DNA from: Malacoraja senta
Lineage: Eukaryota
Assembly (NCBI GenBank): GCA_038087875.1
Contig: CM075990.1
Coordinates: forward strand, 9,674,001-9,738,000
Reading direction: 5' to 3'
DNA: 64,000 bases
The notes below the pieces were generated by a model that was not told the DNA's origin, ran no database searches, and saw only the letters and a program-made list of their open reading frames with translations. The position numbers and the translations under genes are program-made. This document shows, piece by piece, positions 761-63,533 of the stretch (the stretch's first letter is position 1; each line of letters begins with the position of its first letter).

Positions 761-824
761 ATTGACCCTTGACCTGGCCGGAGGAGGCAGTGACCAAGTG
801 GGCAGCAACACCTCCCACCCTCAG

Positions 825-1690: not shown

Positions 1691-1699
1691 AACAGGTAT

Positions 1700-2804: not shown

Positions 2805-3214
2805 ATCAGTTCCTACCTATGCCTTGCCTTACATCGTTTGGGATATACGAAGCAAGTTTGGTTCAAGACTGGCTCAAATACTAGACTGACTGGAGTATTT
2901 AATTGTACTCTTTTCCATCATTTCATCTTCACATGGTCTATCTCTGACTCTTCCATTCTTAAACCTTCATCTCAATTTCTGGGGAGAGGTTATTACTAAT
3001 TATTGTTAGTCAATTGACTCCACAGCTTGACTGTTTTGATGACTCTACTCCATAAGTTGTTTTCCTATCTTTTTCACGTTTGTTTTTGGAATTCACTCTT
3101 CCACCAGACCTTCCAAAATGCATTTCTTGTCTTCATCGAAGGACTCCACCCCATTGCGCTTGATGAGGTTTCCAAAAATCTATGAAATGTCTGTTCCATT
3201 TCACGTATTTGACT

Positions 3215-3750: not shown

Positions 3751-4084
3751 TTACTTTGCATGAACCGTGTTTTGTATATTGCCAGCAAGAAATCTGCTAT
3801 CCCTGAGGATGTGAGCAGGTGGTAATCTGGTTTTAAAGTCAAACCTGAAAACAAAACAGCAAGGTTGTAAACTTGCACCATGACACCAACAGGCAGAGTA
3901 TGTATAATTAAAAATTGATGCATTTTGGCTCTTTGGTGAGCTGATATAATTTACCAGAAAATAATGAAATTTTATAAAGGGGTGCCGTCAATGGCTACTT
4001 CATCAACTTAAACATTTCAAACAGTTTTAAATATGTTTTTGGAATGTGGACACTATTACATATAACTAATATGTGATATGTGAA

Positions 4085-5534
4085 GGTACACAAAAATGCT
4101 GGAGAAACTCAGCGGGTGCAGCAGCATCTATGGAGCGAAGGAAATAGGCAACGTTTCGGGCTGAAACCCTTCTTCAGACTGATAGGGGGTGGGGAGAAGA
4201 AAGGAAAAGAGGAAAAAGGCGGAGGAGGAGCCTGAGGGCTGGGGGAGGGGAGGAGACAACCAGAGGGCTGATGAAGGGGAGGGGACAGCAAGGGCTAGCA
4301 GAATTGGGAGAATTCAATGTTCAAGCCCCCAGGATGTAGACTGCCCAAGCGGAATATGAGGTGCATTTCCTCCAATTTACGGTGTTGCTCGCTGTGGCCA
4401 TGGAGGAGACCCAGGACAGAGAGGTCAGATATGGAATGGGAGGGGGAGTTGAAGTGCTGAGCCACCGGGAGGTCAAGTTAGTTATTGCGGACCGACCGGA
4501 GGTCTTCGGCGAAACGATCGCCAAGCCTCCGCTTGGTCTCACCGATGTAGATCAGCTGGCATCTAGAGCAGCGGATGCAATAGATGAGATTGGAGGAGAT
4601 GCAGGTGAACCTCTGTTGCACCTGGAATGACTGCTTGGGTCCTTGAATGGAGTCGAGGGGGGAGGTGAAGGGACAAGTGTTGCATCTCTTGCGGTTGCAA
4701 GGGAAAGTACCAGGGGAGGGGGTGGTATGGGAGGGAAGGGAAGAATTGACAAGGGAGTTACGGAGGGAGCGGTCTTTGCGGAAGGCAGACATGGGGGGAG
4801 ATGGGAAGATGTGGCGAGTGGTGGGGTCACGTTGGAGGTGGCGAAACTGACGGAGGATCACTTGTTGTATGTGACGGCTGGTGGGGTGAAAGGTGAGGAC
4901 TAGGGGGACTCTGTCCTTGTTGTGAGTGGGGGGGATGGGGAGAGAGAGCAGTGTTGTGGGGTATGGCAGAGACCCTGGTGCTAGCCTCATCTATGGTGGA
5001 GGAGGGGAACCCCCGTTCCCTGAAGAATGAGGACATTTCAGATGCCCTGGTGTGGAACGCCTCATCCTGGGAGCAGATGCGGCGTAGACGGAGGAATTGG
5101 GAGTGGGGGATGGAGTCCTTACAGGAAGCAGGGTGGGAAGAAGTGTAGTCCAGATAGCCATGGGAGTCGGTGGGTTTGTAGTGGATGTCGGTAAGGAGTC
5201 TATCACCTTCGATGGAGATAGTGAGGTCAAGGAATGGTAGGGAAGTGTCGGAAATGGTCCAGGTATATTTGAGTGCCGGATGGAAGTTGGTGGTGAAGCG
5301 GATGAAGTCAGTCAGTTGTGTGTGGGTGCAGGATGTGGCACCAAAACAATCATCGATGTAGCGGAGGTAGAGGTCGGGGTTGGGGCCCTGGTACGCATTG
5401 AACAAGGATTGTTCTACGTACCCGACAAAGAGGCAGGCGTAGCTGGGGCCCATGCCTGTGCCCATAGCTACGCCTTGTATTTGGAGGAAATGGGAGGAGT
5501 CAAATGAAAAGTTATTAAGTGTAAGGACCAGCAC
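4085..5534 (-). mobile_element. 5'-truncated Penelope-like element (Neptune-like): RT, Cys-rich linker and GIY-YIG endonuclease, frameshifted
   Basis: QGVAMG and LRYIDD RT motifs (4827-5534); PCNRKRCNTC and IYCIRCSRCQLIYIGET (4478-4990); 14-15 bp TSD atgtgatatgtgaa(g) at 4071-4085 and 5535-5549; hammerhead-like core at ~4149-4178. Confidence 0.92.
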
Positions 5535-5649
5535 ATGTGATATGTGAAGATGGCAGTGAATGTAACTGTAAATGTTAATTGAGCAAAATTGAAAGGCTCA
5601 AGACAGCCATATTAGGTTGGCAATAAACATGAAGTTGACCAGAGAGTAT

Positions 5650-10455: not shown

Positions 10456-12794
10456 AAAGAGTAAGAGAAGGCTGCTGTGACTGAGTCTTTCAAAGATCTA
10501 CTCTTGCAGTTAAGTTCCACAGGAATTTCACACTGGAATTAATACATTTCTGCATCTTGCGGCTAAATGGCCAACTACAATCAACCACAGAATTATGGTC
10601 ACATCTCTACATTTTCTCGTCTGAAATTCTGTGCTCTGCTTTGTAAGTCCTATTACAAATCTTGAATATTAGTGAAGTTGTCTACTTAAGTTTAGAAAGA
10701 TATATTTTTATTAAACTACCTGTTTCAAACTTAAACCTGTTTGCAGAACTTACGTAGAACTGACTGAAGTACATGGTCATGCAAAGATTTTGAGATAATG
10801 TATTTTGGGAGTTTTACTTGTTTGTTGTCTTACAAGCAGGAAAAACAAATTGCAATCTTAAAACAAAGTGATGCTCGGTCAACAGTTTGAGGACCATTGC
10901 ACCGAGATCTCATGTTTAAAAAGCAAGTGAAAATGATAGGTACACGAGAAACCACGTTGGCAGCAGTTTTTGAGAATAACTGGAGTGCAAACAGAACTAA
11001 TTTAGCATGGAGACTGATGCACAGTTTGATGAAATCATTAAGTGCAAAAGACATGCTGAGATGTGCAGCCGGTTTAGATAAATGGTGTTTCGATAAGTAC
11101 CTTCCATAGTAGAAGAAGGTTCCCTTCAGTGAATGTTCTGTGCAATATCCCCAGAGGTGATTCAAAGGTAGTATGCGTTTATTGTAGCAAAGTTGTAATG
11201 CTCTAAATTCTGCGTATGTTGGTTATTTTTCAAGAAGTGATCATTCTTGGTGAGTAATGTAATGATTTGATTAAATATATAGGGCTGAAAAGACTGGACT
11301 AGATTTTATAGTAAATGCAACCCATGCAACAACAAAGGAAATTGAAATGAAAAATATTCTGATGAAAATAAATGCCTCTGTGTATTATTTCTTGTGTTGA
11401 CTTGGTAATGTTCTATGTTGGTGTTTTCCATGTAGTATGTGGTGGACATACTGGTCTTGCGATCGTTTCTAATGTTTTCTTTGCTGTTTGGTGGAATTAT
11501 TTGGTTTCAAATAATTGTCTTAGTTCCTCTCTTTGGAAAGAATATTGGAAGTGGTATGCACCACAAATTGATGCCTGGGTCAGCTTCTCTTATCAAAATT
11601 GTACTTAGGTATTTATGAATAATACAATGAAGATTTATTAAGGCAAATTGTAAAAACTTTGACATGAAATGGGTAGGGTTTAATTTAACATGGAGTAGTG
11701 TGAGATAATGCATTTTTTGAGCAGACAAGGAATACAAAAGTGAAGTGGAAATATTGCGACCTCATTCACCGAGTACTGTGTTAAAAATGTAGCCATCTTT
11801 TTGTGTATTTTGTAAATTAAAGACTAAATGTAGACGGAGCAACAAGTTCGTGATAATATTTTACAAGCCGATACCTAGATCAGAGAGTTCTGTTCACTTT
11901 TGGGAGTCCTGCTATGGAGGGGGCATTAAAGTGGAATTGATGAGGATGCCATCAAGGGTGATAAACTATGCTATTGCAAGATACTGAATACTGCAATTAT
12001 TTCTAGTTATAAAAGGATTTGATAGTTTTAAAATGATAACTTTTGATGGGGCGAGTTGGAAAAAACTACTCAGCGAGTTAGCGATGAAGAGTTAGCAATT
12101 TAAATTGCCGTTGAAGGAGAAAATATTTTTCATTGGTACCACACGGAGGAGGAAATTGGTGTTTTGAAGAGGAAGTTTATATATTGCTTTATGCAAGAGC
12201 AATTCCGCAAAAAATAAATTGGGATTATTGTTGCAGCATTAAAATCTGCAACAAATGATTTATTGGCATTTAGCTAATGCAGTAATATAACCTTCAGGAA
12301 TAATTTTCATTGAAAGACAAATGAAAACAGTACAAGGTTGCATTGATTCTGAACAAACGTTCACTTCTGTAAATGTAATTTGCTGTGGATTAGCATGTGA
12401 AGGAACCAAAGTAAAAAGATAATCTGGAATAATTTGAAACATATTTCTGTAAATTAATGAGAATTATGATTTGGTGCAAATTTGCTGCTGCAAGATTATG
12501 AATGTCAATTGGTCGGAAGATGGCATTCTTTGTAATTATGAAAGATAGCATCTATATGTAATCAGTTGGGTAAATTTGACCTGAGTTTTCCAATTTTACA
12601 TAGAAACATAGAAACATAGAAAATAGGTGCAGGAGTAGGCCATTCGGCCCTTCGAGCCTGCACCGCCATTCAATATGATCATGGCTGATCATCCAACTCA
12701 GTATCCTGTACCTGCTTTCTCTCCATACCCCCTGATCCCTTTAGCCACAAGGGCCACATCTAACTCCCTCTTAAATATAGCCAATGAACTGGCC

Positions 12795-15741
12795 TCAACT
12801 ACCTTCTGTGGCAGAGAATTCCAGAAATTCACCACTCTGTGTGAAAAATGTTTTCCTCATCTCGGTCCTAAAAGATTTTCCCCTTATCCTTAAACTGTGA
12901 CCCCTTGTTCTGGACTTCCCCAACATCGGGAACAATCTTCCTGCATCTAGCCTGTCCAACCCCTTTAGAATTTTGTACGTTTCTATAAGATCCCCCCTCA
13001 ATCTTCTAAATTCTAGCGAGTACAAACCGAGTCTATCCAGTCTTTCTTCATATGAAAGTCCTGACATCCCAGGAATCAGTCTGGTGATCCTTCTCTGTAC
13101 TCCCTCTATGTCAAGAATGTCTTTCCTCAGATTACGAGACCAAAACTGTACGCAATACTCCAGGTGTGGTCTCACCAAGACCCTGTACAACTGCAGTAGA
13201 ACCTCCCTGCTCCTATACTCAAATCCTTTTGCTATGAATGCTAACATACCATTCGCCTTCTTCACTGCCTGCTGCACCTGCATGCCTACTTTTAATGACT
13301 GGTGTACCATGACACCTAGGTCTCGTTGCATCTCCCCTTTTCCTAATCGGCCACCATTCAGATAATAGTCTACTTTCCTGTTTTTGCCACCAAAGTGGAT
13401 AACCTCACATTTATCCACATTATACTGCATCTGCCATGCATTTGCCCACTCACCCAGCCTATCAAAGTCACCTTGCAGCCTCCAAGCATCCTCCTCACAG
13501 CTAACACTGCCCCCCAGCTTCGTGTCATCCTCAAACTTGGAGATGTTGCATTCAATTCCCTCGTCCAAATCATTAATATATACCGTAAATAGCTGGGGTC
13601 CCAGCACTGAGCCTTGCGGTACCCCACTAGTCACTGCCTGCCATTGTGAAAAGGACCCGTTTACTCCTACTCTTTGCTTCCTGTCTGCCAGCCAGTTCTC
13701 TATCCACATCAATACTGAACCCCCAATACCGTGTGCTTTAAGTTTGTATACTAATCTCTTATGTGGGACCTTGTCAAAAGCCTTCTGAAAGTCCAGATAT
13801 AACACCAGTCCAGACTGGTTCTCCCTTATCCACTCTACTAGTTACATCCTCAAAAAATTCTATAAGATTCGTCAGACATGATTTACCTTTCATAAATCCA
13901 TGCTGACTTTGTCCAATGATTTCACCACTTTCCAAATGTGCTGCTATCCCATCTTTAATAACTGATTCTAGCAGTTTCCCCACTACCGACGTTAGACTAA
14001 CTGGTCTGTAATTCCCCGTTTTCTCTCTCCCTCCCTTTTTAAAAAGTGGGGTTACATTAGCTACCCTCCAATCCTCAGGAACTACACCAGAATCTAAAGA
14101 GTTTTGAAAAATTATCACTAATGCATCCACTATTTCGGTGGCTACTTCCTTAAGTACTCTGGGATGCAGCCTATCTGGCCCTGGGGATTTATCGGCCTTT
14201 AATCCATTCAATTTACCTAACACCACTTCCCGGCTAACCTGGATTTCACTCAGTTCCTCCATCTCATTTGACCCCCGGTCCCCTGCTATTTCCGGCAGAT
14301 TATTTATGTCTTCCTTAGTGAAGACAGAACCAAAGTAGTTATTCAATTGGTCTGCCATGTCCTTGTTCCCCATGATCAATTCACCTGTTTCTGACTGCAA
14401 GGGACCTACATTTGTTTTAACTAATCTTTTTCTCTTCACATATCTATAAAAGCTTTTGCAGTCAGTTTTTATGTTCCCTGCCAGTTTTCTTTCATAATCT
14501 ATTTTCCCTTTCCTAATTAAGCCCTTTGTCCTCCTCTGCTGGACTCTGATTTTCTCCCAGTCCTCTGGTAGGCTGCTTTTTCTGGCTAATTTGTACACTT
14601 CATCTTTTGTTTTGATACTATCCCTGATTTCCCTTGTTATCCACGGATGCACTACCTTCCCTGATTTATTTTTTTGCCAAACTGGGATGAACAATTGTTG
14701 TAGTTCATCCATGCAGTCTTTAAATGCCTTCCATTGCATATCTACCATCAACCCATTAAGAATCAATTGCCAGTCTATCTTCGCCAATTCACTTCTCATA
14801 TCCTCAAAGTTACCTTTCTTTAAGTTCAGGACCCTTGTTTCTGAATTAACAATGTCACTCTCCATCCTAATGAAGAACTCAACCATATTATGGTCATTCT
14901 TGCCCAAGGGGTCATGCACAACAAGACTGCTAACTAACCCTTCCTCATTACTCAATACCCAATCTAGAATAGCCTGCTCTCTCGTTGGTTCCTCTACATG
15001 TTGGTTTAGAAAACTATCCCGCATACATTCCAAGAAATCCTCTTCCTCAGCACCCTTGCCAATTTGATTCACCCAATCTATATGTAGATTGAAGTCACCC
15101 ATTATAACTGTTTTACCTTTGTTGCATGCATTTCTAATTTCCAGTTTGATGCCATCCCCAACTCCACTACTACTGTTAGGTGGCCTGTACACAACTCCCA
15201 CTAGCGTTTTCTGCCGCTTAGTGTTTCGCAGCTCTACCCATATCGATTCCACATCCTCCAAGCTAATGTCCTTCCTTTCTATTGCGTTAATCTGCTCTCT
15301 AACCAGCAACGCTAACCCACCTCCTTTCCCTTTCTGTCTATCCCTCCTGAATATTGAATATCCCTGGATGTTCAGCTTCCAGCCTTGGTTACCCTGGAGC
15401 CATGTCTCCGTGATCCCAACTATATCATATTCATTAATAGCTATCTGCACATTCAACTCATCCACCTTATTACGAATGCTCCTTGCATTGAGACACAAAG
15501 CCTTCAGGCTTGTTTTTACAACACTCTTACCCCTTATACAATTATGTTGAAAAGTGGCCCTTTTTGATTTTTGCCCTGGATTTGTCTGCCTGCCACTTTT
15601 ACTTTTCACCTTGCTACCTATTGCTTCTACCCTCATTTTACACCCCTCTGTCTCTACGCTCACACATTTAAGAAACCCTTTCCCTTTAACTCCATCCTCA
15701 ACTATCCCATTCGACACCCCACCCCCCTTATTCAGTTTAAA
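12795..15741 (-). pseudogene. CR1 ORF2 (APE endonuclease + RT), frameshifted near 13805 and near 12837
   Basis: ITETWL, VYRPP, GDFN, SPGPD, QHGF, LDFQKAFDKV, GVPQGSVLGP and FEDDTK motifs split across two frames. Confidence 0.92.
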
Positions 15742-16658
15742 ACCACCCGTGTAGCAGTGGCAAACCTGCCTGCCATAATGCTGGTCCCCCACCTGTTAAG
15801 ATGCAATCCATCCCTTTTGTACAGTTCCCTTTTACTCCAAAACAGATCCCAGTGATCTAAGAATCTAAATCCCTGCCCCGTGCACCAGTTCCTCAGCCAC
15901 ACATTCAGGTCCCGTATCTCCCTGTTCCTGCTCTCGCCAGCACGAGGAACTGGAAGCAAACCGGAGATAACAACCCTGGAGGTCCTGCTTTTCAGCATTT
16001 TTCCGAGCTCTCTAAAGTCACACTGCAGAATATTCATCCCCTTCTTTCCGACATCGTTTGTGCCGACATGCACTACCACTTCTGGCTGTTCACCTTCGCC
16101 CTTGAGGATTTTCTGCACTCTGTCCGTGACATCCTGGATCCTGGCACCAGGAAGGCAGCACACCATCCTCGAATCCCGTCTGTTGCCGCAGAAACCCCTG
16201 TCCGTACCTCTCACAATGGAGTCCCCCACAACAATGGCGTTGCCTGACTTTGGCCTTTTTGGTTTTGGCTCAACAGCCCTATTCGCATCGCAAGCCATTC
16301 TGCCGCTCAATGTTAAAACGTCTTCTGTCCCGACAGCTTCTAAGTGGGCGAACCTGTTCACAAGAGGTACAACACACGGGGACGTTTGCATTCCATGCTT
16401 CCCTCCCTTTCTCACTGTCTCCCACCTTCTCTCTTCCAGTACCTTAGGGGTAACAATATTACTGTAGGACTTGTCGAGGAGCGACTCCGTTTCTCGGACA
16501 AACCTGAGGTCATCCACTTGCTTCTCCAGTTCCCCAACACGGTCCTTCAGGAGCTGTACCTGGATGCACTTGTCACATTTGTAGCAGCCAGAGGCACCAG
16601 CAGTGTCCTTGACCTCCCACATACTGCAAGCATCACACTGAATCAGCTTGCCTGACAT
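15732..16658 (-). CDS. CR1 ORF1p: CxxC...CxxC zinc finger, coiled coil, SGNH/GDSL esterase (308 aa from the first ATG)
   Basis: CDAC and CDKC; GDSIVRG, HVGTND and RDGLHLN esterase motifs; intact frame. Confidence 0.9.
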   Translation of the reverse strand: MSGKLIQCDACSMWEVKDTAGASGCYKCDKCIQVQLLKDRVGELEKQVDDLRFVRETESLLDKSYSNIVTPKVLEERRWETVRKGGKHGMQTSPCVVPLVNRFAHLEAVGTEDVLTLSGRMACDANRAVEPKPKRPKSGNAIVVGDSIVRGTDRGFCGNRRDSRMVCCLPGARIQDVTDRVQKILKGEGEQPEVVVHVGTNDVGKKGMNILQCDFRELGKMLKSRTSRVVISGLLPVPRAGESRNREIRDLNVWLRNWCTGQGFRFLDHWDLFWSKRELYKRDGLHLNRWGTSIMAGRFATATRVVLN

Positions 16659-16824
16659 CTCCTTCTTTCGTCTCTCCCTCTGCAGTGTTTTGTGTAGCCT
16701 CCTCGCCGAAGACTCTCGAGCCAAAGACTCACACTTTTCTCACAGGGCCACTCCCTAAGAGCAGTCTTGCTTATATTGACTGATAAATTGCCTAATTTAC
16801 CAATTTACAATCCAAATTCCTCAG

Positions 16825-17240
16825 TTTTCAACTATTTTCCCCGCTTTGACTCACTTCTCTCCTCCCTCTTGGGCTAGAGCCAATCAGTGTTTTCACTTGC
16901 TAATCTTCTCCTGCTGTTGCTTCCAAGTCTACAGCAGCTCTGAGTAAAGTCTGCCTGTGCTTTGCCTCTCCTTTTCAACTGTTTTCCCCCCTCTGACTCA
17001 CTTCTCTCCTCCCTCTTGGGCTAGAGCCAATCAGTGTTTTCTCTTGCTAATCTTCTCCTGCTGTTGCTTCCAAATCTACAACAGCTCTGAGTAAAGTCTG
17101 CCTGTGCTTTGCCTCTCCTTTTCAACTGTTTTCACCCCTCTGACTCACTTCTCTCCTCCCTCTTGGGCTAGAGCCAATCAGTGTTTTCTCTTGCTAATCT
17201 TCTCCTGCTGTTGCTTCCAAATCTACAGCAGCTCTGAGTA
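16825..17240 (-). repeat. ~2.8 tandem 147-bp monomers in the CR1 5'UTR
   Basis: ttttcaact recurs at 16825, 16972 and 17119; units are near-identical. Confidence 0.92.
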
Positions 17241-38838: not shown

Positions 38839-39309
38839 ATATGCTATGGATCTCTTGCCAAAACTAATTCTGTCAAAATTTGTGTTAAAATGAAAGAAAT
38901 ACTGTAGTGCATCACAACTTTATTCATTGGGCAGTGACAACTTTTAAGGTATGATTTGATTTGATGTGCAGTGATTTTGCTGTTTAACGATAAATGTTGT
39001 AAGCTACAAATGCTTTGACTGAATTAAATCTATTATAATAAGTTTGTTCTGGTCTGCCTACATTCTCGCTTGTTATGGAGTATTAAAAATGTTGCTTTTT
39101 TAATCTATTTTCTTTAATGAAAGATGGTGCATTTATTATTTTCACATAGTTTTAGTACTTTTTGGGAGAAAAAAGCCTCTCTGCTAATTAATCATGTGGC
39201 TATAAAATGGGATTATTGTTTGGATTTTTCATGAAGATCTGAGTGATGCATAACACACAGACATTTGTCCTCTTACCACATTGTATACCCTAGTTCTTTC
39301 ACAAGCTGA

Positions 39310-39555
39310 AGGGCCTGTCCCACTTGGCGATTTTATCGGCAACTGCTGGCATCATTGACTGACATATCAGGTCACCGAAAAATTTGTGGCGTATCGGCGG
39401 CGGTAACGTGGCGCGATGACGTATTGACACGTGGTGTTTTTCTAGTGTCGCAACTTTTTTTTGTCGCTGCTGGATTTTGAAATGTTCAAAATCTTTTGGC
39501 GACACTCGTATGACGCCGGCAGTCGCCGAAAAAATCGCCAAGTGGGATAGGCCCT
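39310..39555. mobile_element. PIF/Harbinger-type MITE
   Basis: TIRs agggcctgtcccacttggcgatttt / aaaatcgccaagtgggataggccct; 3-bp TSD TGA at 39307-39309 and 39556-39558. Confidence 0.88.
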
Positions 39556-40139
39556 TGAGAGACCTCCAAATACTGGTGTACCACTGTGACCTGATTACTT
39601 TTGCTACCTACTTACATACTGAAAGATGCCTCCCTTGGGGCCAGAGCCGGTGCCTTTATTGTTTTGTATATATTTTAATAATTTTGTCATGGTCCACAGG
39701 GTAGCATTTCCAAATTTCCAGGTGGAAAATTGCTTGGAATTGTTGAGGAAGAGAGCAATAGGTTGCTGTAGGATATTGAGAGATGTCAGAAATTTGATAC
39801 AATGCAGTAAAGTGATGCTCTTCGGAGAATCAGTAAAGACACATTATAGATTGATTGTTACTGCCTCCATGAATGAACAATTGGAAGATCTGAGTTTGAT
39901 GCATAACGCACAGACATTTCTTGTCTTATTTCTTGCATGTTGATGGTATCTACAAATCCTCAGATTAAACTCTGGTTGAGTTGATTTGTAAATGTTTGAG
40001 GAAATTAGGGCAATTCTGATTTGAACAATCACTGAGCTTTTGATCTATGTTCGTGCAACTATATATTTTTAAAACAAAATTAAAATTCCTTGCAGTGAAA
40101 GCTATAATTTTCTAACCTTCAAAATATTTTGATATTAGT

Positions 40140-47900: not shown

Positions 47901-48107
47901 TAAGCTGAACAGCAACATTGAATTACAAGACATTTTTTTACTTTGATTAAAACCTTAACATTTTGTAAGCGAGTTTAATATGTTGATAAATGTTGACTTT
48001 AAGTACTTTTAGAGTTATAAGGTCATACAGCATGGAAATTGGCTTTTGGCCCAACTTTCTCCTATCTACAACTACCTGCTCATATTTAGCCTATATCCCT
48101 CTAAAAC

Positions 48108-48488
48108 CCTCGATTCGCAATTACCAACCTGATCTCCTGGTGGCTCACCAACTCCCCCTTCCATTCCGAATCCTACCTTTCTGTCCTGGGCCTCCTCCAT
48201 GGCCAGAGTGAGGACCACGGTAAATTGGAGGAGCAGCAGCTCATATATCGCTTGGGCAGTTTGCACCCCAGCGGTATGAACATTGACTTCTCTAATTTCA
48301 GGTAGTCCCTACTTTCGCCTCCCCTTCTCAGCTCTCCCTCAGCCCACTGGCTCCACCTCTTCCTTTCCTCTTCCCGCCCACCCCCACCCTCACATCAGTC
48401 TGAAGAAGGGTTTCGACCCGAAACGTTGCCTATTTCCTTCGCTCCATAGATGCTGCCTCACCCGCTGAGTTTCTCCAGCATTTTTGTC
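48108..48488 (+). mobile_element. 5'-truncated PLE inserted in a CR1 tail; hammerhead core 48400-48427
   Basis: 12-bp TSD tccctctaaaac at 48096-48107 and 48489-48500; KLEEQQLIYRLGSLHPSGMN GIY-YIG C-terminus. Confidence 0.88.
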
Positions 48489-49059
48489 TCCCTCTAAAAC
48501 TTCATATCCCGTTTTTTTGATTAATCTTGCACTACATTGCATTTTCTTCAAATAAAATAAAAATATTGATCTACCCTACCATGGCTCACTGTGTAGTGCA
48601 GTTCATAGGAAGAAGCAATGCATAATTTTCCCATTTTCAAATACCTTTATAGGTCAAATAAACATACTTATGCAAAAGTGCTTAGCATGTATCTATCTAT
48701 ACATAACCAAAACTCTGATCTTGTGCTCTTCCGGTTTGCGCGGTTTTTCTATTTGCACAAAACTGGTACGTGATAGCGCTCCGATTTTTCGACTGCTTCC
48801 TCACCGTTCACCTGTGCTGCGAGTGCAACAAGTTTTGTTCCGATCTATGGTATATTGTAAAAGTTATTAAGGTTTAAAAATCGTAAAAACCACGCATGCC
48901 GAGATTGCTGTCGGTCACTGCTACGCAGATTGGTCTCCTCTCCTGTCAGTCGGAAAGGGGCGTCGCTGGGACAGCGATGGCCCTTCGTGGCACCATCGCC
49001 GCACTGATTGGCTGCGTCCGCTGTGGGGGCCTGGACTGGACCCCAGGCGGCGACCGAGC

Positions 49060-49335
49060 TGAGGGCTGGAGTCGTGCCCAAGCCCGGGGCCTGGTCAAGG
49101 TGTACCAACGCCTCGGGGGCTGCCTGGCCGCCGCCATCCTGGAGCACAGCGTCCGCTTCCTGCTCTGCGGGCAGCTCTGGCTCGGCCGCCCGCCACCCTC
49201 ACCTCGCCCCTGGCACAGCAAGCTCGGCTCCATCGAGGGCCAGGTCCTCGAGTGCTTCAGCCACCAACAGCCAGGGCCGGGCCGAGTACAAGAACCGGGC
49301 CGAGTTCCTGGCCCTGAAGCTGCTCTACGACCTGG
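49060..49335 (+). pseudogene. Frameshifted SAC3D1-like (SAC3/GANP domain) exon fragment
   Basis: YQRLGGCLAAAILEHSVRFLL...QVLECFS, then a second frame YKNRAEFLALKLLYDLG, ending at the donor G|GTAGGT; resembles recalled SAC3D1 motifs. Confidence 0.65.
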
Positions 49336-49554
49336 GTAGGTGCTGGGGCAGGGAATGGGAGTGAGGGGAGGAGGATGGAGTGGTAGAGGGAGATGGGGGG
49401 GGGGGCAGCGCTGAACCCCGCTGTCTACCTGCTGGCGAGGGACACCACAGGCTCGGGACGGGCAGTGGCTCCTGCCGTGGGCGCGGACACCGGGAGTGGC
49501 CCTAACGCACCGCAGCGTTACACGGAGAGAGGGAGCGCCGCAGCCCGGCCCACA

Positions 49555-49925
49555 GCACGGGGAGGGGGGGAGGGGGGAGAAGATGGAGGGAGGGGGTTGA
49601 GAGGGATGAGGGAAGGAGAGGGATGAAGGGGGAGAGAGGGATGAGGGCGGGAGGGGGAGAAAGGAATGGGGGAGGGAGGGGGGAGAGAGGGTGGGTGGGG
49701 GGAGAGAGGGTGGGTGGGGGGAGAGAGGAATGAGGGACGGAGTGGGAGAGAGGAATGAGGGAGGGAGGGGGAGAGGGAAGAGTGGGATGGGGAGAGGGAG
49801 GAAGGGGGGAAGAGAGGGAGGGAGTGGGGTAGCGAGGTGGTGAGTGCAGGGGATACAGAGGGGGGTGGAAGGGAGAGGGGGACAGGGAGGGGTGGATTTG
49901 ATGGGAGGGGGATAGGCGTGAGTGG
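49555..49925. repeat. G/A-rich low-complexity tract inside the Helitron
   Basis: Polypurine run on the + strand. Confidence 0.85.
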
Positions 49926-50039
49926 TGGAATATTGAGTTGGGGAATGGGTTGCGTTGGGGGAACCAGACCTCCCGTGTGACAGGGACCCAACGGGTCGCA
50001 CAGTCTAGTTCTTGAGTAAAAACTTAGTTCTCTCTTACA

Positions 50040-50690
50040 ATCGGCCCAACATGCCCTATTTACACTACTCCCACCTGCTTGCATTTGGCCAATATAGCTG
50101 TAAATCTATCCTATCCATATACCTATCCAATGTTTTTAAACGTTGTGATAGTACCTGCCTCAATTATCTCCTCCAGCAGCTCGTTGGTTAGTTGGTTCGA
50201 ACCCGAAACGCTACCCATTCCTTTTTTTCCAGAGATGCTGCCTGACCCGCTGAGTTACTCCAACATTTTATGTCAATCCACAATACTCTAAATGTGGCCA
50301 CATCAATATCTTGTACAACTGTAACATGACCTCCCAACTGCTATACTCAGTACTGATGAAGGTCAATGTGTATAGCATCTTGGCAATCCTATCTACCTGT
50401 GACGCCACTTTCAAGGAACTATTTACCAACATGCCTAGATCCCTCTACTCTACAACACTTGCCAGAACCCTGCCACTCACAGTGTAGGTCCTGCCCTGGT
50501 CAGACTTCCAAAAATGCAACACCTTGTACTTCTCTGTATTAAACTCCATCAACCATTCCTCAGCCCACCTGCCCAAATGATCACAATACTGCTGCAATTT
50601 TGGACAACCATCTTCACTATCTGCAATACCACCCACTTGAGTGTCACCTGCAAACTTACTAATCATGCCTTGTACATTTACATAAAGGTA
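50040..50690 (-). mobile_element. Degraded CR1 with a PLE-derived insert at ~50195-50270
   Basis: ISKFAGDT and WLMEFNTEKYKVLHF motifs. Confidence 0.78.
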
Positions 50691-51974
50691 TCTGATATAA
50701 CGTCTGTAAGATAGCCTATGCACGCCTTTTCAATATAATCGCACTTAAGTTTTGCATTTATGTTTTGCTATTCAAGCGCGTGACTCCACTTGGGCAAAAA
50801 ATGCAAAATGTTTATAAGTAATCTGTTAATTTCCATTCAATAATCTATATCATACAAATTGTATTGTCACTAACCATTCCAATGAAATAAAGAAAAAATA
50901 TTTTTACTGTCTTATTATTTTTCCACCTGTAGCTATATACAGTTTTACAATTTTGAATAGGAATTTGAGGGGGTAAAGCAAGTTCACTTCATTTATTCAA
51001 TATCAGTTTTCTGACAAACTAGTCTCTGGAATGTCCTTGACTGTATCTGGAAGCACAGTACTTTGTGTTCTTAATTTTGATGCTATGATAATAATTGTTA
51101 CTTAGCTTCATAAAGTTTATAGAACTATGCCAACAAAATCTTAACACCAGTTAGTAAGGTAAAATTCTCCTCGTTCAAGAAGGCCGTTTCATTTATATTT
51201 TGAAGTTCTGACTTATTTGAGTCAGGAACTTGACAACGTTTCAGAAATAGCTTGTGTTCATTTGCCATTGAACATTTTGTTTCAATTCACGACTCGTTCA
51301 GGAAAATGTTCTGTAGTCTTGTGTTATTTGTATTAAATTTGTATTGCAAGATATTTAATTTATATGTGAATGTTTGTTGGTAGGAGGGACAAAACGGTTG
51401 TTTTGTTATTAGTATTTTCCTGTAAATTAATGAAGATGGTAAGCTGGAACAAATGTTCGAATTGGTGAATGCCATAGATGGCACCAGTATTGAACTCAAA
51501 AGTTGGCGTAAAATAGGGACGTACAACACGAAAGCAGGTCCTGCGTCCCACTCCTCAGTGCCGAGCAGGTTTTGTAACTGAGCTGTATGTGCCAATGATA
51601 TCTGAATAACCAATACAGTAGGTAGAAATTCAATTAATCGTAATTATTTGATTTTTAATTTTTCAGTGGCTTTCAACAATCCATATTTTCAAAAGTGTCA
51701 TGATTTCTTTGAGCTGCAAATGTGAAGTGCAGCTTAAATCTTATTTCTGTAAGCATTTGCTGTGAAAAGATATTTTTGTGCTACAATATCTTCTGAAACT
51801 CTCGGCTTTACGATGTTCTCCTATCATTTTTCTTTCTTTTCTGTTGAGAAATACTACCAGGCAAATTAAGTGTATTTTACATGATGTGAGTGAATGTTAA
51901 TGGTTGGATTCAAAGCTGTTCTCTAGTCAGTACTTGAATCTCAATTGTTTTGAAATGCAATCCGATAAAACCGG

Positions 51975-52971: not shown

Positions 52972-54545
52972 AGTTTACCCAGCGGCCTTGACCCACTGCA
53001 GTTCGCCTATCGCCACAACATGTCCACGGACGATGCCACCGCACTAGCCTTATACTCATCCCTGGAACACTTGGATGAGAGAGACACTTACAGTACGTCA
53101 GACTCCTATTCATAGACTACAGCTCTACCTTGAACACCATTATACCATCCAAACTTATCACCAAATTTGCGGGACTTGGTGTCAGCACTCATTTCTGCAA
53201 CTGGATCCTCGGCGTCCTGACCAACAGACCCCAATCAGTGAGGTTAGGGGATAAATCCCCCTCTACGATAATCCTCAACACCGTTGCTCCGCAAGGTTGC
53301 GTTCTCAGCCTCCTCTTTACTCCTTGTACACCCACAACTGTACAGCCATGTACAAATCTAATTCAATTTTCAAATTCGCAGAAGACACCACCATTGTGGG
53401 CCGAATATCAAATAAAGATGAGGTAGAATACAGGAAGGAGATCGAGAACCTCGTGTCCTGGTGCCGAGACAACAACCTTTCTCTCAATGTCAGCAAAACA
53501 AAGGAGATGATGATCGACCGCCCCGACGCAGGAGTTTCGATCGCCCCAAGCGGGAGCTTCCACCGCCAGCTGCGGGAGCTTTGAGCTCCCCGACGGATGG
53601 TTCGACTGCCCCACCGTGGGAGAAATAAAGAGGAAGAAGATTGAACTGTTTTGCCTTTCATCATAGTGAGGAATCCACTGTGATGGATGTTTATGTTAAC
53701 TTTTATGTATGTGTGTCTTGTTGCTTTTTTTTGTATGGCTGTATGGTAATTCGCATATCACTGTACATTAATTGGTACATGTGACAATAAAAGACCTTTG
53801 AAACCTTTGAAACCTTTTGACTTCAGGAACCCCAGTTTGCATTGACAGCGCCTAAGTAGAGATGGTTGAAAACTTCAAATTCCCAGGAGTCCATATCACC
53901 AACAACTTCTCCTGGACCACCCGTATTAAAGCAACCACCAAGAAAGCATACCAATGCCTCTACTTCCTTCAAAGGCTTAGGAAGTTCAGCATGTCCTCTA
54001 CAACTCTCACCAACTTCTACAGGTGCACCATAGAAAACATTTTATCAGGATCAGCTTGGTTTCAGAACAGCCCCATCCAAAACTGCAAGAATTTGCAGTG
54101 AATTGTGGATGCAGCCTCGACCATCACACAAGCCAACCACCTTTCCTTTGACTCCATTTATACCTCACGCTGCCTCAGCAAGGCCAGCAGTATAATCAAG
54201 GAGGAGTTGCACCCTGGCCACTCCCTCTTCTACCCTCTCCCATCAGGCAAAATATATAGGTGTGAAAGTGCACATCTCCAGATTCAGGGATGGTTTCTTC
54301 CCAGTTATTATCTGGCAACTGAATCATCCTATCACAACCAGAAAGCAGTCCTGAACTACTATCTACCTCATTGCTGACCCTCGGACTTTACCTTGCACTA
54401 AATATTATTCCCTTATCATGTATCTATCTATACATTGTAAATGGCTCGATTGTAATCATGTATTGTCTTTCCACTGACTAGATAGCAAGCAACAAAACCT
54501 TTTCAATGTACCCCGGTACACGTGACAATAAACTAAACTAAACTA
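52972..54545 (+). mobile_element. Rex1/Babar LINE, degraded, with nested insert at ~53512-53818
   Basis: [26 protein letters not shown] and NVSKTKEM motifs; (aaact)n tail. Confidence 0.88.
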
Positions 54546-55267: not shown

Positions 55268-55947
55268 TATTACCAGAATATTACTGGGGCTAAAAGCGTT
55301 AAATTCTGTGGACAGATTCTATGGACTAGTTTTATGTACAAATGAATGTAGATCTAATTGAGGAATGTAAGATGATTAAAGGATTTGATAGAGTGGGCAG
55401 ATGGATCAGTGACATGGATTAGTGTTGAGGGCTAGTGGGTTTTTCTCTGCTGTTGGTTCTCTCGCCATTCTCTCACCATTTCTTAGTGGGTTGTTGGACT
55501 GAAGGTAGTTATAATTAAAGAGACATGAAGCTATAACAGGATGTAAACACTGGGATGAAACTTCTGAAGTTGAATTTTGGATAAATCAATGCAAGTCAGC
55601 AAGCATATTGCAGATTCTAAGGACTTAAGATGGACTTTAGCTGAAGGTTAAAAGAGCCAACAGAAAATTGGAATGACTGGGTCTGGTGATGGACAAGGGT
55701 GTATATGAAGGTTTTTCATTGAAAGTGGATAGTGGGAGTAAGGAAGATAATGGAGTATTATACTTCCAGTTTGCTTTGATTCATTCTGAAATGTTGGAGG
55801 GGCAGGCTGTAGAATTGTTGATATTCATTTTTCCTTATGAAATAGAAGAGACAATGATTTTGGACAAATAACAAAGATTACAAAACTTATGTTCCACCAA
55901 AATTGTTTTAAGTATTTGAATTCATTCTTTTGAAATGACTATGAACC

Positions 55948-57220
55948 TATCGACAAAAACCTGGACCCACTGCAGTTCGCTTACCGTCACAACAGATCAA
56001 CGGTGGATGCGATCTCGCTGGCCCTCCACTCCGCTCTGGACCACTTGGACAACAAAAACTCATATGTCAGGCTGTTATTCATCGATTACAGCTCGCATTT
56101 AATACAATCATCCCCTCCAAGCTGGTTACCAAACTCGCAGAACTGAGTCTCTGCACATCCCTCTGCAATTGGATCCTCGACTTCCTCATTCACAGACCAC
56201 AGTCTGTTCGTATTGGTGGAAATGTGTCAGCCTCGATAACAATCAGCACGGGAGCACCTCAAGGCTGCGTGCTCAGCCCCCTGCTGTACTCACTCTATAC
56301 TCATGATTGCGTAGCCGGACATAGTGCGAACTCCATCATCAAGTTCGCTGACGACACCACTGTCGTGGGACGTATCACTGATGGGGATGAGTCAGAGTAT
56401 AGAAGAGAGATCGAGCAACTGTCCATATGGTGCCAGCACAATAACCTGGCCCTCAACACCAGCAAAACCAAGGAACTGATTGTGGACTTTGGAAGGAGTA
56501 GGATGGGGACCCACAGTCCCGTTTATATCAACGGGTCGATGGTTGAAAGGGTCAAGAGCTTCAAATTCCTGGGCGTGCACATCTCTGAAGATCTTTCCTG
56601 GTCCGAGAACACTGATGCCATTATTAAGAAAGCACATCAGCGCCTCTACTTCCTGAGATGATTACGGAGAGTCAGTTTGTCAAGGAGGACTCTCTCTAAC
56701 TTCTACAGGTGCACAGTAGAGAGCATGCTGACTGGTTGCATCGTGGCTTGGTTCGGCAACTTGAGCGCCCTGGAGAGGAAAAGACTACAAAAAGTAGTAA
56801 ACACTGCCCAGTCCATCATCGGCTCTGACCTCCCTTCCATCGAGGGGATCTATCACAGTCGCTGCCTCAAAAAGGCTGGCAGTATCATCAAGGACCCACA
56901 CCATCCTGGCCACACACTCATCTCCCTACTACCTTCAGGTAGAAGGTACAGGAGCCTGAAGACTGTAACGACCAGGTTCAGGAATAGCTACTTCCCCACA
57001 GCCATCAGGCTATTAAACCTGGCTCGGACAAAACACTGAACTTTATTAGCCAATTAACTGTTATTTGCACTTTACCAGTATATTGATTCATGTGTGTATA
57101 TATTTATAGAATGCCTTGTAGTCAATGCCTACTATGTTCTGTTGTGCTGAAGCAAAGCAAGAATTTCATTGTCCTATCAGGGACACATGACAATAAACTC
57201 ACTTGACTTGACTTGACTTG
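55948..57220 (+). mobile_element. Young 5'-truncated Rex1/Babar LINE
   Basis: [19 protein letters not shown] and [10 protein letters not shown] motifs; in-frame stop at 56659; (acttg)n tail. Confidence 0.93.
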
Positions 57221-57584: not shown

Positions 57585-58312
57585 AATACTTTGATCTTGG
57601 GTTTGTGTGTGTGTTTATAATCACATCTGCTCTAACGGTAAAATCTTTACATATTCCTGTAGAGTTATATCCCATGGATTCAGAAATCGGCTTAGCTGAA
57701 AATGTTGTGCTTTATTTCTTGAGTTATTAATAAAAATGTTGCCTCTTTCACCTGCCCCCCACCGGGCCTCTCTTCCACCCCCCTCCTCTTCCCCCACCTC
57801 TGCTCCCTCCTCCCCCCCTCCCTCCTCCCCCCTCCTGCTCTCTCTGCCCCCTCCTCTCTCTGTCCCCTCCTCTCTCTGCCCCCTCCTCTCTCTGCCCCTC
57901 CTCTCTCTGCCCCCTCCTCTCTCCCCTCCTCTCTCTCTCCCTTCCTCTCTCTCCCCCCTCCTCTCTCCCCTTCCTCTCTTCCCCCTCCTCTCTCCCCCCT
58001 CCTCTCTCCCCCCCTCTCTCTACCCCCTCCTCTCTCTCCCCCCCCCCTCTCTCTCTCTCCCCTCCTCTCTCTCCCCCTCTCCTCTCTCTCCCCCCCTCCT
58101 CTCTCTCCCCCCTCCTCTCTCTCCCCCCTCCTCTCTCTCCCCCCTCCCCCTCTCTTCCTCCCCTACTCTCTCCCTCCCTCCTCTCCTCTCCCCCCCCCCC
58201 CCGCCTCTCCCTCCACAGCCTTTCTCTTCCTCCCCCCGGCATCCCTCTTCCCTCCCCCCCCCCCCCCCCGCACGTTGAGGGGACGGGACACAACGGGTTC
58301 CTCTTGGTCTAG
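57585..58312 (+). mobile_element. Second non-autonomous Helitron-like element with long C/T tract (57750-58270)
   Basis: 3' end gggacacaacgggttcc...CTAG|T is homologous to the 50008 end; ctttgatcttg echoes ctctgatcttg near the 5' end of the first copy. Confidence 0.6.
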
Positions 58313-59663: not shown

Positions 59664-62600
59664 AATTTAACCCACAAATTTAACCCACAAATTTTGAACG
59701 AAAGATCATGCCAGGAATATCTTATTAAACAGCCAGGAATATCTTATTAAACAGATTCAAATATTTTTTGAGGTAAATGACAACCCTGACACACCTACTT
59801 CTCTTATGTGGGAAACGTTTAAAAGCGTTTGTTCGAGGTGCATTAATTTCTGCCCAAGTATTTTATAATAAAGAGAACAGGATTAAACAACAAACATTGG
59901 AAAGGGAAATCAAGCAACTAGATATAGAAAATGCGAGAATGCCATCTATATTAAAACATAATAAAATTGCTGTGTTGAAATATAAATTAAACAAAATGTA
60001 TTCAGAACAAGTAATAAAACTTTATCAAAAAACCAAACAATTACATTTCGAGTTTGGAGACAAACCACAAAAACTATTAGCACGTCAGTTACGAAAAATA
60101 ATTCATAAAATTAGAACAGAGACAGGAGAATTATCAAAAATGCCCAAGGATATAAACGAGAGATTTCTCCAATACTATCATAATCTTTATTCAACTAAAA
60201 CTGTAGTACAACCAGAAGGAATAGCAGATTTTTTACTAAAATGTAATTTAAAAGGTTTAGACTCAAACGATAGAGAATTATTAGAAGGGGAGATTACGAT
60301 AAAGGATATTGAAGAGTCTATTGGCTCTTTAAAAAATGGTAAAGCAGTAGGACCAGATGGTTTAGGCTCTGAATTCTATAAAATATTTTATTACTTGCTC
60401 TCCCCACGTTTACAAAGGCTGTATGAGCATATCTATACTCAACAGAAACTTCCAGATACTTTAAATGAATCTATAATAACACTTATTCCTAAAGTTGATA
60501 AAGATCCGGAAGATCCGGGATCATATAGAGCAATTGCACTTTTAAATACAGATCAGAAAATATTAACTAAAATACTAGCGCATAGATTAAGTACAGTGAT
60601 GAATAAATTAATACACCCTGACCAAACAGGCTTTATTCAGAAACGGTACTCATATTATAATCTAAGAAGATTATTTAATATTATATATTCTAAGAGAATT
60701 ATTAATGAAGATCTAGCAATAATCTCACTTGACGCTGAAAAAGCTTTTGATCAGGTTGAATGGTCCTATTTATTTTCGGTGATGGAAAATATGCAACTAG
60801 GGGAGAAATTCTGCACATGGATAAAACTGTTATATACAAACCCTACGGCTAGAATATTAACAAACCAAAGGTTGTCATCTAAATTCAGCCTATCTAGAGG
60901 TTGTAGACAAGGATGCCCGTTATCTCCATTATTATTTGCGCATGCTATTGAGCCACTCGCAGAAAGAGTTAGGGGTCATCCGGAAATACATGGGTATAAC
61001 ACAAAGGATACAGTGAATAAAATTTCTCTATACGCAGATGATGTACTAATTTACATTACTAAACCAGAAATTAGTATTCCAAACTTATTAAAGTTAATAA
61101 CCCAATTTGGTTCACTCTCAGGATACAGAATAAATTGGAATAAAAGTGAAATTATGCCAATAAGGGAACACAACAAACAGATAATACAACAATTTCCATT
61201 TAAAATAGTAAACGAAAAATTCAAATACCTAGGCATTTACGTAACTAAGATATATACATCATTATTTAAAGCAAATTTCCCCCCATTACTGAACAAACTA
61301 CATAAGAATATTCAATATTGGAAAACACTTCCTATCTCAATGGTTGGCAAAATTAATGCCATAAAAATGATTTTTTTACCGCAAATATACCCTTTTCAGA
61401 CAATTCCGATATATTTGTCAAAAAACTTTAAAAAAAAATTGGATTCCATTGTTAATGATTTTATCTGGGATTATAAGAATCATAGGATAAACAAAAGACA
61501 TTTGTGTAAATCAAAAATAAATGGAGGCTTGGTTTTACCAAACTTTCTGTTTTATTTTTGGGCAGTTAATATTAAAAATATGAATTTCTGGTTGGAAGAA
61601 ATAGATCAACAACCAGATTGGTTAAAAATGGAAAAGGAAGATTGTTTACCTTTTGATATCGGCTCGATATTATTTGCTACGTCTAAATTAAACAAAAAAA
61701 ATTATATGGAAAACCCTTTAATATTTAGTGCTATACAAATTTGGAAACAATTAAAAAAGACATTAAAATTAGATAACTTATCACTTTTTCTTCCAATTGT
61801 GAATAACCCTTTGTTTAAGCCCTCATGGTTGGACAGGGGTTTTACACAATGGAAGAATTATGGAATTAAAAATATGGGACAACTTTACAAGGAAGGCACT
61901 TTTCTTACATTTCAGGAGTTGCAACAGACTTATGGACTTCGAGGAAATGATTTTTTCAGATATCTTCAACTCAGAGATTATGTAAAATCGAATACTCAAA
62001 ATTTTTGAATTAGAAATTCAGAAATTCTTGATGAATGTTGGAATAAACATCCTAATACAGAAAAATTAATATCTTATATATATAATATTTTATTAGACAG
62101 TGACATTCCATCGACGGACTTACACAGACAAACATGGGAAAAAGAATTAAATCAAATAATAACGAAAGATACTTGGGAAGAAAGTTTACAACACATACAT
62201 CAATGTTCATTAAATGCCAGACATTCTTTAATACAATTTAAAGTAATACATAGGTTACATTATTCAAAAACAAAATTACATAAAATCTTTCAACATATCT
62301 CACCTATATGTGATATATGTCAACATTTAGAAGCTAACTTATCTCATATGTTTGCAAACTGTATAAAAATTAAAAAATTCTGGGTAAATATTTTCAGTAT
62401 AATATCTAAAGTGACCAGCACACAATTGGACCCGGATCCAAAATTAATAATACTCGGAACATTAGAATTAAATCAAACATTTACAACAACACAAAGAAAC
62501 TTTATTGATTATAGTATAATAACGGGACAAAAATTAATTCTAAAATTTTGGAAAGGCCCTATAACCCCCACAATCAAAATGTGGATTATAGAAATGACGG

Positions 62601-63533
62601 AGACCTTAAACGTGGAAAGAATCAGATTTTCCCTGTTGGACAAACAGGAATTATTTGTTGGAAGGTACACAAAAATGCTGGAGAAACTCAGCGGGTGCAG
62701 CAGCATCTATGGAGCGAAGGAAATAGGTAACGTTTCGGGCCGAAACCCTTCTTCAGACTGATAGGGGGTGGGGAGAAGAAAGGAAAAAAGGAAAAGGAGG
62801 AGGAGGAGCCCGAGGGTGGGGGGAGGGGAGGAGACAACCAGATGGCTGATGAAGGGGAGGGGACAGCCAGGGCTAGCAGAATTGGGAGAATTCAACGTTC
62901 AGGCCACCAGGGTGTAGACTGCCCAAGCGGAATATGAGGTGCATTTCCTCCAATTTACGGTGTTGCTCGCTGTGGCCATGGAGGAGACCCAGGACAGAGA
63001 GGTCAGATACGGAATGGGAGGGGGAGTTGAAGTGCTGAGCCACCGGGAGTTCAGGTTGGTTATTGCGGACCGACCAGAGGTGTTCGGCGAAACGATCGCC
63101 AAGCCTCCGCTTGGTCTCACCGATGTTGGAACATGGTCTCCCTTTATTGATTATTTAAAGGGTCAGAATGGTTCAGCACAGGAACCTGACTAACACTCGG
63201 GCTAAAGAATGGATGAAATGTTATACTCTGAAATGTACGAATATATCTCGAACAAAGTTTTTTATCTTAATACATTTTTCTATTCTTCTTTAACTATCTT
63301 TTTCTTTTCTGTTTTCTTTTATTATTATTATTTTTTTTTTTTTCCTTTCTCTTTTCTTTCTTTACTTCATCTATCTTTTTAGTTCTATCTAGTTTAAAAA
63401 AAACAAAAAAAGGCAAAAGGTATTGGAGACAATGTAATAATAATTGACAATATTATCAATTTAAAAATGTAAGACTGGTAATGATGATAATATGTTGTGT
63501 ACTTATCTCCAATAAAAAATATTTTTAAAAAAA
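59664..63533 (+). mobile_element. 5'-truncated fish-type L1 LINE (ORF2 RT, premature stop at 62008, Cys-rich C-terminus, A-rich tail)
   Basis: GPDG, HPDQTGF, LDAEKAFD, RQGCPLSP, LYADD and WSPF motifs; AATAAA plus A-tail; imperfect TSD agaa(a/g)cttct at 59654-59663 and 63534-63543. Confidence 0.93.
62664..63123 (-). mobile_element. 5'-truncated PLE nested in the L1 ORF2 C-terminus
   Basis: Near-identical to 4085-4545; 8-bp TSD tgttggaa at 62656-62663 and 63124-63131. Confidence 0.92.

What the first reader, a model, noticed from the sequence alone, without database searches (positions are those of the whole stretch)
48692..50008. Helitron-like element carrying a captured SAC3D1-like exon
Seen: A|TC start, a subterminal hairpin, CTAG|T end and no TSD, enclosing a GC-rich stretch that translates across a frameshift as QRLGGCLAAAILEHSVRFLL...QVLECFS...YKNRAEFLALKLLYDLG, directly followed by a GT donor and GC-rich intron-like DNA. 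Known: these termini define Helitrons, and Helitron gene capture is well described in plants and bats. Inference: the peptide matches recalled SAC3D1 motifs (LE.TVRFL, QEC.S, EF.AL.LLYNLG), so this may be DNA-level capture of a host exon plus intron in a cartilaginous fish.
Basis: partly seen in the sequence, partly recalled or inferred. Interest (0 to 1): 0.78.

Follow-up and report, generated by a model that had tools for sequence, protein, structure and literature searches.

The report
Skate Helitron copying a SAC3D1 exon
This 1.3-kb stretch has the ends of a rolling-circle transposon (Helitron) and carries a broken piece of the skate housekeeping gene SAC3D1 up to its splice site, likely picked up as DNA and copied many times across skate genomes as probably inert cargo, a kind of gene-fragment capture already known from bats and frogs.

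Summary
Observation confirmed, interpretation supported. 48692-50008 has canonical Helitron (HLE1) ends: A|TC, a small hairpin ending 11 nt before CTAG|T, no target-site duplication. 49026-49335 is a decayed piece of skate SAC3D1: 43 of 53 residues identical in the main block, E 2e-18, with two frameshifting deletions. It stops at the parent's exon end. A spliced SAC3D1 contig leaves the window there and reads on into the next exon, and shark gene models break at the same L|G, so capture was likely at DNA level. The cargo is a family, not a one-off: in three organisms' DNA runs it has summed depth in the thousands against about 21 for the unique flank in one of them, and it shares an internal deletion. 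Changes are mostly amino-acid-altering (15 of 17 codons listed) and CpG-type. Not shown: the parent intron beyond about 8 nt, an empty site, a RepHel partner, any function. The same capture is published for bats (HelibatN3-NUBPL) and Xenopus; my searches found no report for cartilaginous fish, though other windows of this scan noted it. New member of a known kind.

The parts
48692..48950 (+). Helitron left end (5' TC after A) and AT-richer left terminal sequence
   Evidence: family depth 62,000-120,000 over 48671-48898 in X3 against about 21 in the flank
48950..49024 (+). GC-rich internal segment shared with other family members that continue with different DNA after 49024; holds an ATG at 48977 and a CCAAT-box-like 10-mer at 49004-49013 (minus strand); origin unknown, possibly a captured promoter
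   Evidence: 49 X3 contigs leave the stretch behind 49024; CpG o/e 1.06; motif (pattern chosen after the fact)
49026..49335 (+). Captured 3' part of the SAC3D1 coding exon that ends at ...L|G (probably the first coding exon), with a deletion of about 14-16 codons plus frameshift near 49092-49097 and an 11-nt deletion at 49262-49266
   Evidence: 11 extra letters in the parent-like contig X24 record 13; 27 X3 contigs extend upstream of 49026 with SAC3D1-type sequence
49336..49400 (+). SAC3D1 splice donor (GTAGGT, 49336-49341) and probable start of the parental intron
   Evidence: spliced contig leaves at 49337; shark partial models break at L|G and one reads through as G-R-C like the window; DNA beyond about 8 nt not compared with a parent
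49403..49560 (+). GC-rich multi-copy segment of unknown origin (more intron or a second captured piece)
   Evidence: X3 depth 109-1,423; no Pfam hit in 3 frames tested
49560..49900 (+). G-rich purine low-complexity tract
   Evidence: X1 record 7 matches 49699-49897 with 0 differences
49985..50008 (+). Helitron right end: 5-bp hairpin ending 11 nt before the end, then CTAG, followed by T50009
   Evidence: family depth

Best explanation
This is one decayed copy of a non-autonomous element with canonical Helitron ends in a skate genome, carrying the 3' part of a SAC3D1 coding exon and its splice donor, which an ancestral Helitron likely captured as genomic DNA and which was then likely amplified as inert cargo. 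Shown: termini, SAC3D1 identity, end of homology at the parent's exon end, many diverged copies in three organisms, broken reading frame. Inferred: capture by RepHel read-through past a right end (the Helraiser model) or by repair filling during transposition; mobilisation in trans by an autonomous Helitron not seen here; capture within the skate lineage, because the piece includes part of a repeat insert found only in the three skate SAC3D1 genes of the alignment; stepwise remodelling, because longer-exon copies, a new junction at 49024|49026 and shared internal deletions define subfamilies; later decay of this copy by methylation-type mutation.
For: Termini fit HLE1 as defined in PMC11417382 and PMC4778049. 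SAC3D1: searches (2 hits, both skate SAC3D1, E 2e-18; best 2 of 3 hits among 1.84 billion representatives), frameshift-aware alignment 74 of 101 identical to P0001 residues 165-284, ending at nt 49337. Exon end: X24 record 13 (999 nt) aligns 49089-49337, has the 11 nt the window lacks, and runs on into sequence translating as the next SAC3D1 residues. Bamboo-shark partial models P0033 and P0030 end and start at L|G on separate contigs, and P0034 reads through as G-R-C then stops. Family: 1,738 X3 contigs lie on 48990-49560; contigs about 85% alike bridge the left end and the cargo (X1 record 2, X3 record 18; X24 record 9); the 49073/4-to-49267 deletion is in X1, X3 and X8. Decay: of 33 listed sites where the X3 majority differs from the window, 22 are transitions toward T/A and 14 sit at CpG; 15 of 17 affected codons change the residue; functional skate orthologues are 51 of 53 identical to each other against 42-43 of 53 for the window.
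Against: No contig spans the whole element, so the linkage of cargo to the right end in other copies is pieced together. The G-R-C match covers only 8 nt, and the X3 majority at 49342 gives G-R-S. No empty site was seen, and no RepHel-coding partner was found or sought genome-wide (no genome held). Summed contig depth is not a copy number (tool caveat). The substitution counts come from 33 of the 40 rows shown out of 96, and some majority letters are subfamily changes rather than parental states (for example 49142).
Confidence: 0.88

Rival explanations
1. RNA-mediated origin: a SAC3D1 retrocopy, or a reverse-transcribed unspliced RNA, landed inside a Helitron and was amplified with it.
For: Nested retrogenes are described in bat Helitrons (PMC4224331 passages). 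The mRNA and the window share the two bases after the exon end, so the junction is ambiguous by 2 nt.
Against: Homology stops at the exon end with a donor and no exon-2 sequence follows. The donor matches the shark read-through model. No poly(A) or TSD is visible inside the element. An unspliced precursor cannot be strictly excluded.
Confidence: 0.04
2. Coincidental mosaic: a multi-copy SAC3D1-derived repeat moved by other means and here happens to lie between two Helitron fragments.
For: Depth is very uneven along the element (termini 1e5, cargo 1e3, some bins near 1e2), and no contig spans it all.
Against: Diverged contigs in several runs bridge the left end into the cargo and the cargo into the downstream segment (records 2, 18, 23; records 9, 23). 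The two ends are correctly oriented at an A|T site. Uneven depth is expected from deletion subfamilies, which are seen as shared joints.
Confidence: 0.05
3. Functional portable first exon: the CpG-rich segment with a CCAAT-like box, the ATG at 48977 and the SAC3D1 donor act as promoter plus exon trap, as HelibatN3 does, and this copy or its kin start chimeric transcripts.
For: The ATG at 48977 is in a good context and open to the donor. The CCAAT-like 10-mer lies at 49004-49013. The exon end and donor are the most amplified part of the cargo (X3 depth about 55,000 at 49330-49369). Element copies occur in X24, a run that also holds a spliced contig. Logan protein P0009 joins an element-type 5' part to genuine SAC3D1 downstream sequence. 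Precedent: PMC4778049.
Against: Long open frames are common in 70% GC DNA (two other + frames here are open for 84 and 118 codons). The donor score is ordinary (241 of 6,692 GT sites score as high with a recalled matrix). No host exon was found nearby (150 of 403 candidate frames scanned, none reached a Pfam cut-off). No contig in the loose ends shown splices from this donor to a non-SAC3D1 exon. P0009 may be an assembly chimera.
Confidence: 0.1

Closest known systems
HelibatN3 of vespertilionid bats (NUBPL capture; PMC4224331 and PMC4778049, passages read)
   Same: Non-autonomous canonical Helitron with TC/CTAG ends and a hairpin 11 nt from the end; carries the 5' region of a housekeeping gene with its splice donor and intron start; amplified to high copy number.
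   Different: Here the lineage is skates and the gene SAC3D1. This copy has only the 3' part of the coding exon, frameshifted. The upstream GC-rich segment is not SAC3D1's own adjoining sequence, and promoter or exon-trap activity is untested, whereas it was shown for HelibatN3.
Heli1Xen1 non-autonomous copies in Xenopus laevis (PMC12001565, passages read)
   Same: HLE1 elements with captured coding fragments, biased to the 5' end of genes (17 of 19).
   Different: There 19 fragments lie in only 64 insertions, up to 17 copies each; the skate SAC3D1 piece appears far more amplified (rough depth ratios of tens to thousands).
Vertebrate SAC3D1 (Pfam PF03399 SAC3_GANP; PCID2 partner per the abstract of 10.64898/2026.04.13.716336)
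   Same: Source of the cargo; 80% identity over the main block.
   Different: Only about 100 of about 445 codons, out of frame twice, lacking the start and the whole downstream exon: not a functional SAC3D1.

Membership tests
Canonical Helitron (HLE1), non-autonomous | 5' end TC | tested here: met
   48692-48693; family pieces begin at 48690-48696
Canonical Helitron (HLE1), non-autonomous | 3' end CTRR with a short hairpin just upstream | tested here: met
   CTAG 50005-50008, stem 49985-49997; stem weak on its own
Canonical Helitron (HLE1), non-autonomous | Insertion between A and T without target-site duplication | tested here: met
   A48691 and T50009, TSD length 0 in 6 of 6 boundary choices; empty site not seen
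Canonical Helitron (HLE1), non-autonomous | Termini recur as an interspersed family with unrelated flanks | tested here: met
   depth step from about 21 to 120,000 at the left end in X3; 11 X20 contigs with long heterogeneous loose ends (agreement 0.47) before 48690; the right junction is shown by depth only
Canonical Helitron (HLE1), non-autonomous | An autonomous RepHel element sharing the termini | not testable with these tools
   no genome held; no RepHel frame inside the element
Canonical Helitron (HLE1), non-autonomous | Empty A|T site in a relative or paralogue | tested here: inconclusive
   no 48691-to-50009 joint among 15 joints shown of 376; organism B has the insertion at the same place
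HLE2 (Helentron/Helitron2) | Short terminal inverted repeats and T|T insertion | tested here: not met
   ends are A|TC and CTAG|T (definition in PMC11417382); no dedicated TIR search run
DNA-level gene-fragment capture | Cargo homologous to a conserved host gene | tested here: met
DNA-level gene-fragment capture | Exon end followed by intron sequence rather than the next exon | tested here: met
   spliced contig diverges at 49337; shark models break at L|G
DNA-level gene-fragment capture | Downstream DNA matches the parental intron over its length | tested here: inconclusive
   only about 8 nt comparable, via P0034's read-through; parental DNA not available
Processed pseudogene | Exon-exon junction, poly(A), TSD | tested here: not met
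   no exon-2 match anywhere in the window; none of these features at the cargo ends

The most novel reading that the evidence does not exclude
The skate family works as a mass-produced portable first exon: a captured CCAAT/CpG promoter segment fused to a SAC3D1 exon end and donor, retained at hundreds to thousands of sites, that starts chimeric transcripts spliced into host genes and can even join SAC3D1's own downstream exon (P0009), so that Helitrons rewired skate transcriptomes independently of bats.
Probability: 0.12. Interest if true: 0.65.

Novelty: new member of a known kind. Interest (0 to 1): 0.36.

Why it matters
It extends large-scale Helitron capture of gene starts from bats and frogs to cartilaginous fish, where three skate genome papers I searched do not use the word Helitron in their main text (supplements not read). 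The old, slowly decaying copies with shared deletions are good material for ordering capture steps and for dating the family across skates. Practically, many SAC3D1-like fragments can mislead gene annotation and assembly (P0009 may be such a chimera). It would matter more if some copies supply promoters or splice donors to host genes.

Tried and rejected
Own genome: none held. Pfam on the raw cargo frames: 0 of 5 hit; the fragment is too short and diverged, and the parent hits at 4.7e-69. Search for short element-derived proteins of 66-212 aa: none. Exact-pattern scans for further copies: 0 matches in metagenome contigs, prokaryote genomes and viral contigs, as expected for skate DNA. Rfam on 48000-51000: 0. 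Host gene: 150 of 403 candidate frames scanned, 4 weak hits all below curated cut-offs, none accepted. P0045, third hit (E 3.9e-4), is a BNR-repeat protein and was rejected as chance. The 24-nt match of the left junction to 54412-54435 lies in another repeat context and was treated as a chance TCTA/AT-rich match. An NPxxY-like reading at 49410-49436 was rejected because family-majority letters break it. No RNA holder was listed. X21 gave 0 contigs, which proves nothing. The second Helitron-like end at 58285-58312 has no left end alignable with this one. Earlier notes by place and by sequence: nothing. Literature searches for a skate or chondrichthyan Helitron, or Helitron with SAC3D1 or ALG13, showed no such paper among the rows listed (only the top 20 rows were seen where more matched; subscription papers, Dfam and Repbase not covered).

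Full report
What is there. The sequence shows A|TC at 48691/48692, a stem GACCC-3 nt-GGGTC at 49985-49997 and CTAG|T at 50005-50009. No target-site duplication was found for 6 of 6 boundary choices. These are the HLE1 hallmarks given in PMC11417382 (passages), and the hairpin ends 11 nt before the terminus, as in Helraiser (PMC4778049, passages). The hairpin is not unusual by folding energy (z -0.99 and -0.61). It is, however, the only 1 of 63 CTAGT sites in the window with such a stem, against 0.14 expected in local shuffles (14 of 100 shuffles gave one; rule set after seeing the site).

The ends are a family. No genome was held, so I laid public sequencing contigs on the stretch. Twenty of 24 listed runs, under 9 organism codes, hold part of it; I laid 7 different runs. 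In DNA run X3 the unique left flank has depth 21-24, the bin holding the left end 120,282 and the bin before the right end 203,839; X1 and X8 show the same step. Eleven X20 contigs have long, mutually unlike sequence before 48690 (agreement 0.47). One 3,026-nt X3 contig runs from the flank into the element (48500-48742, 13 differences, 2 gaps), so the insertion is shared with an organism about 5% diverged. No empty-site joint was among the 15 joints shown of 376.

The cargo is SAC3D1. The frame 48974-49336 found 2 proteins among 1,212 candidates, both skate SAC3D1 (80% identity, E 2-3e-18). An exhaustive search gave skate and ray SAC3D1 as the best 2 of 3 hits, the third being a chance BNR-repeat protein. 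A frameshift-aware alignment covers residues 165-284 of Rhinoraja SAC3D1 on 49038-49337 with 74 of 101 identities and two frameshifts. The main block is 42-43 of 53 identical to skates, 30-35 identical to other rays and 18-20 to sharks and a caecilian. The 5' part matches a repeat insert present only in the three skate genes among the 16 named proteins aligned, which points to capture inside the skate lineage (inference). SAC3D1 is conserved from sharks to frogs, so the direction is gene to element.

The GT is the parent's exon end. In run X24 a 999-nt contig aligns at 49089-49337, holds 11 bases that the window lacks at 49262-49263, and continues with sequence that translates as the next SAC3D1 residues; it is a spliced parent transcript by inference. 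Independently, two bamboo-shark partial models on separate contigs end at ...L and begin at G... (P0033, P0030), and a third reads through as G-R-C and stops (P0034). The window also reads G-R-C there, though the X3 majority has a different base at 49342. So the element holds exon end plus donor, not an exon-exon junction, and no exon-2 match exists in the window. Whether 49344-49560 is parental intron could not be compared.

The cargo is amplified and remodelled. 1,738 X3 contigs lie on 48990-49560, only 148 of them 99% or more alike. Summed depth is 714-5,203 over 48990-49269 and about 55,000 at the exon end and donor, against about 21 for the flank. The tool warns this is no copy number; I read it only as tens to thousands of copies. 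Diverged contigs bridge the left end into the cargo (X1 record 2, X3 record 18; X24 record 9, 48992-49377 with 58 differences) and the donor into the downstream segment (X3 record 23). At 49024|49026, 49 X3 contigs leave with other sequence and 27 enter with SAC3D1-type upstream sequence. That marks a junction between a family segment and the exon, and shows that other copies hold more of the exon. A deletion from 49073/4 to 49267 occurs in X1, X3 and X8, so amplification likely predates the split of these three organisms. No contig spans the whole element.

Decay. From the 40 rows shown of 96, I kept the 33 with an X3 majority differing from the window and dropped 7. Of these, 22 are transitions toward T or A, 14 at CpG, and 15 of 17 affected codons change the residue. 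Functional skate orthologues differ at 2 of 53 residues where the window differs at 10-11. Some majority letters are subfamily changes rather than parental states (49142), so this is a rough count, but nothing suggests coding constraint.

How it most likely works. An autonomous Helitron, not seen here, acted near the 5' CpG-rich part of SAC3D1 in an early skate and took up exon and intron DNA. The likely routes are read-through past a missed right end, as shown for Helraiser, or repair filling; the data cannot separate these. The non-autonomous product was copied in trans, gave deletion subfamilies and exchanged internal segments. This copy inserted at an A|T site, became fixed and decayed. 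Confidence 0.88.

Loose threads. The segment before the exon has CpG o/e 1.06, a CCAAT-like 10-mer (1 of 4 matches in the window, the other 3 in one tandem repeat; 0.31 expected; motif recalled and chosen after the fact) and an ATG open to the donor. It could be a captured promoter. Earlier AI notes of this scan report a sister family carrying ALG13's first exon; I did not test that. Logan protein P0009 begins with the element-type deletion and the family-majority residue at 49142, then continues as true SAC3D1 through the next exon. An assembly chimera across a shared stretch is the simplest reading; a real recombinant or chimeric transcript is not excluded. No host exon was identified near the element (150 of 403 frames scanned).

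Comparison and novelty. It works like HelibatN3, which amplified the NUBPL promoter, first exon and intron start to about a thousand copies (PMC4224331, passages) and can act as an exon trap. It also resembles the Heli1Xen1 captures in Xenopus (PMC12001565, passages). It meets the structural tests for a non-autonomous HLE1; RepHel partner and empty site are open. Searches (listings only, top 20 where more matched) and term look-ups in three skate genome papers (PMC10115646, PMC12361510, PMC9605692; main text, 0 occurrences of Helitron; supplements not read) found no report for cartilaginous fish; repeat databases were not available. Of the 8 earlier notes shown out of 24, 3 describe SAC3D1-carrying skate Helitrons and a fourth mentions them; these are not independent support. 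Verdict: real, well supported, a new member of a known kind; interest 0.36.

Noticed in passing
window 58285-58312 (+), body about 57620-58280: A second Helitron-like right end (degenerate stem of the same type, then CTAG|T) preceded by a C/T-rich tract; its left end was not identified and does not align with the first element's.
   Followed up: partly
P0009 (Logan protein): Element-type 5' part joined to genuine SAC3D1 including the downstream exon: assembly chimera or a real recombinant transcript.
   Followed up: partly
P0001, P0002, P0006 (skate SAC3D1), alignment A2 columns about 160-290: Skate SAC3D1 has a roughly 100-residue Ala/Glu/Pro/Gly repeat insert, absent from the other rays, sharks and amphibians aligned; Rhinoraja has two SAC3D1-like entries, one on a 6.6-kb contig.
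   Followed up: no
window 380-760: CpG island (GC 0.67, o/e 1.15) with a candidate short first coding exon on the minus strand (ATG near 607, strong donor near 535) of an unidentified gene leaving the window to the left.
   Followed up: no
window 16825-17240: 147-bp tandem repeat (2.8 copies, 97% alike) at the 5' end of a long LINE-like element on the minus strand (12600-16800); each unit holds a CCAAT-box-like 10-mer.
   Followed up: no
window 12795-15795 (-), 59777-62761 (-), 4478-5597 (-), 55945-57039 (-): Long reverse-transcriptase-like frames of LINE- and Penelope-type retroelements (assigned from recall of the motifs, not searched).
   Followed up: no
window 39306-39559: A 50-bp inverted repeat pair (88% alike) about 250 bp apart, MITE-like.
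   Followed up: no
window 49310-49377: The exon end plus donor is about ten times deeper than the rest of the cargo in X1, X3 and X8, so a large subfamily seems to have kept only this part; unexplained.
   Followed up: partly
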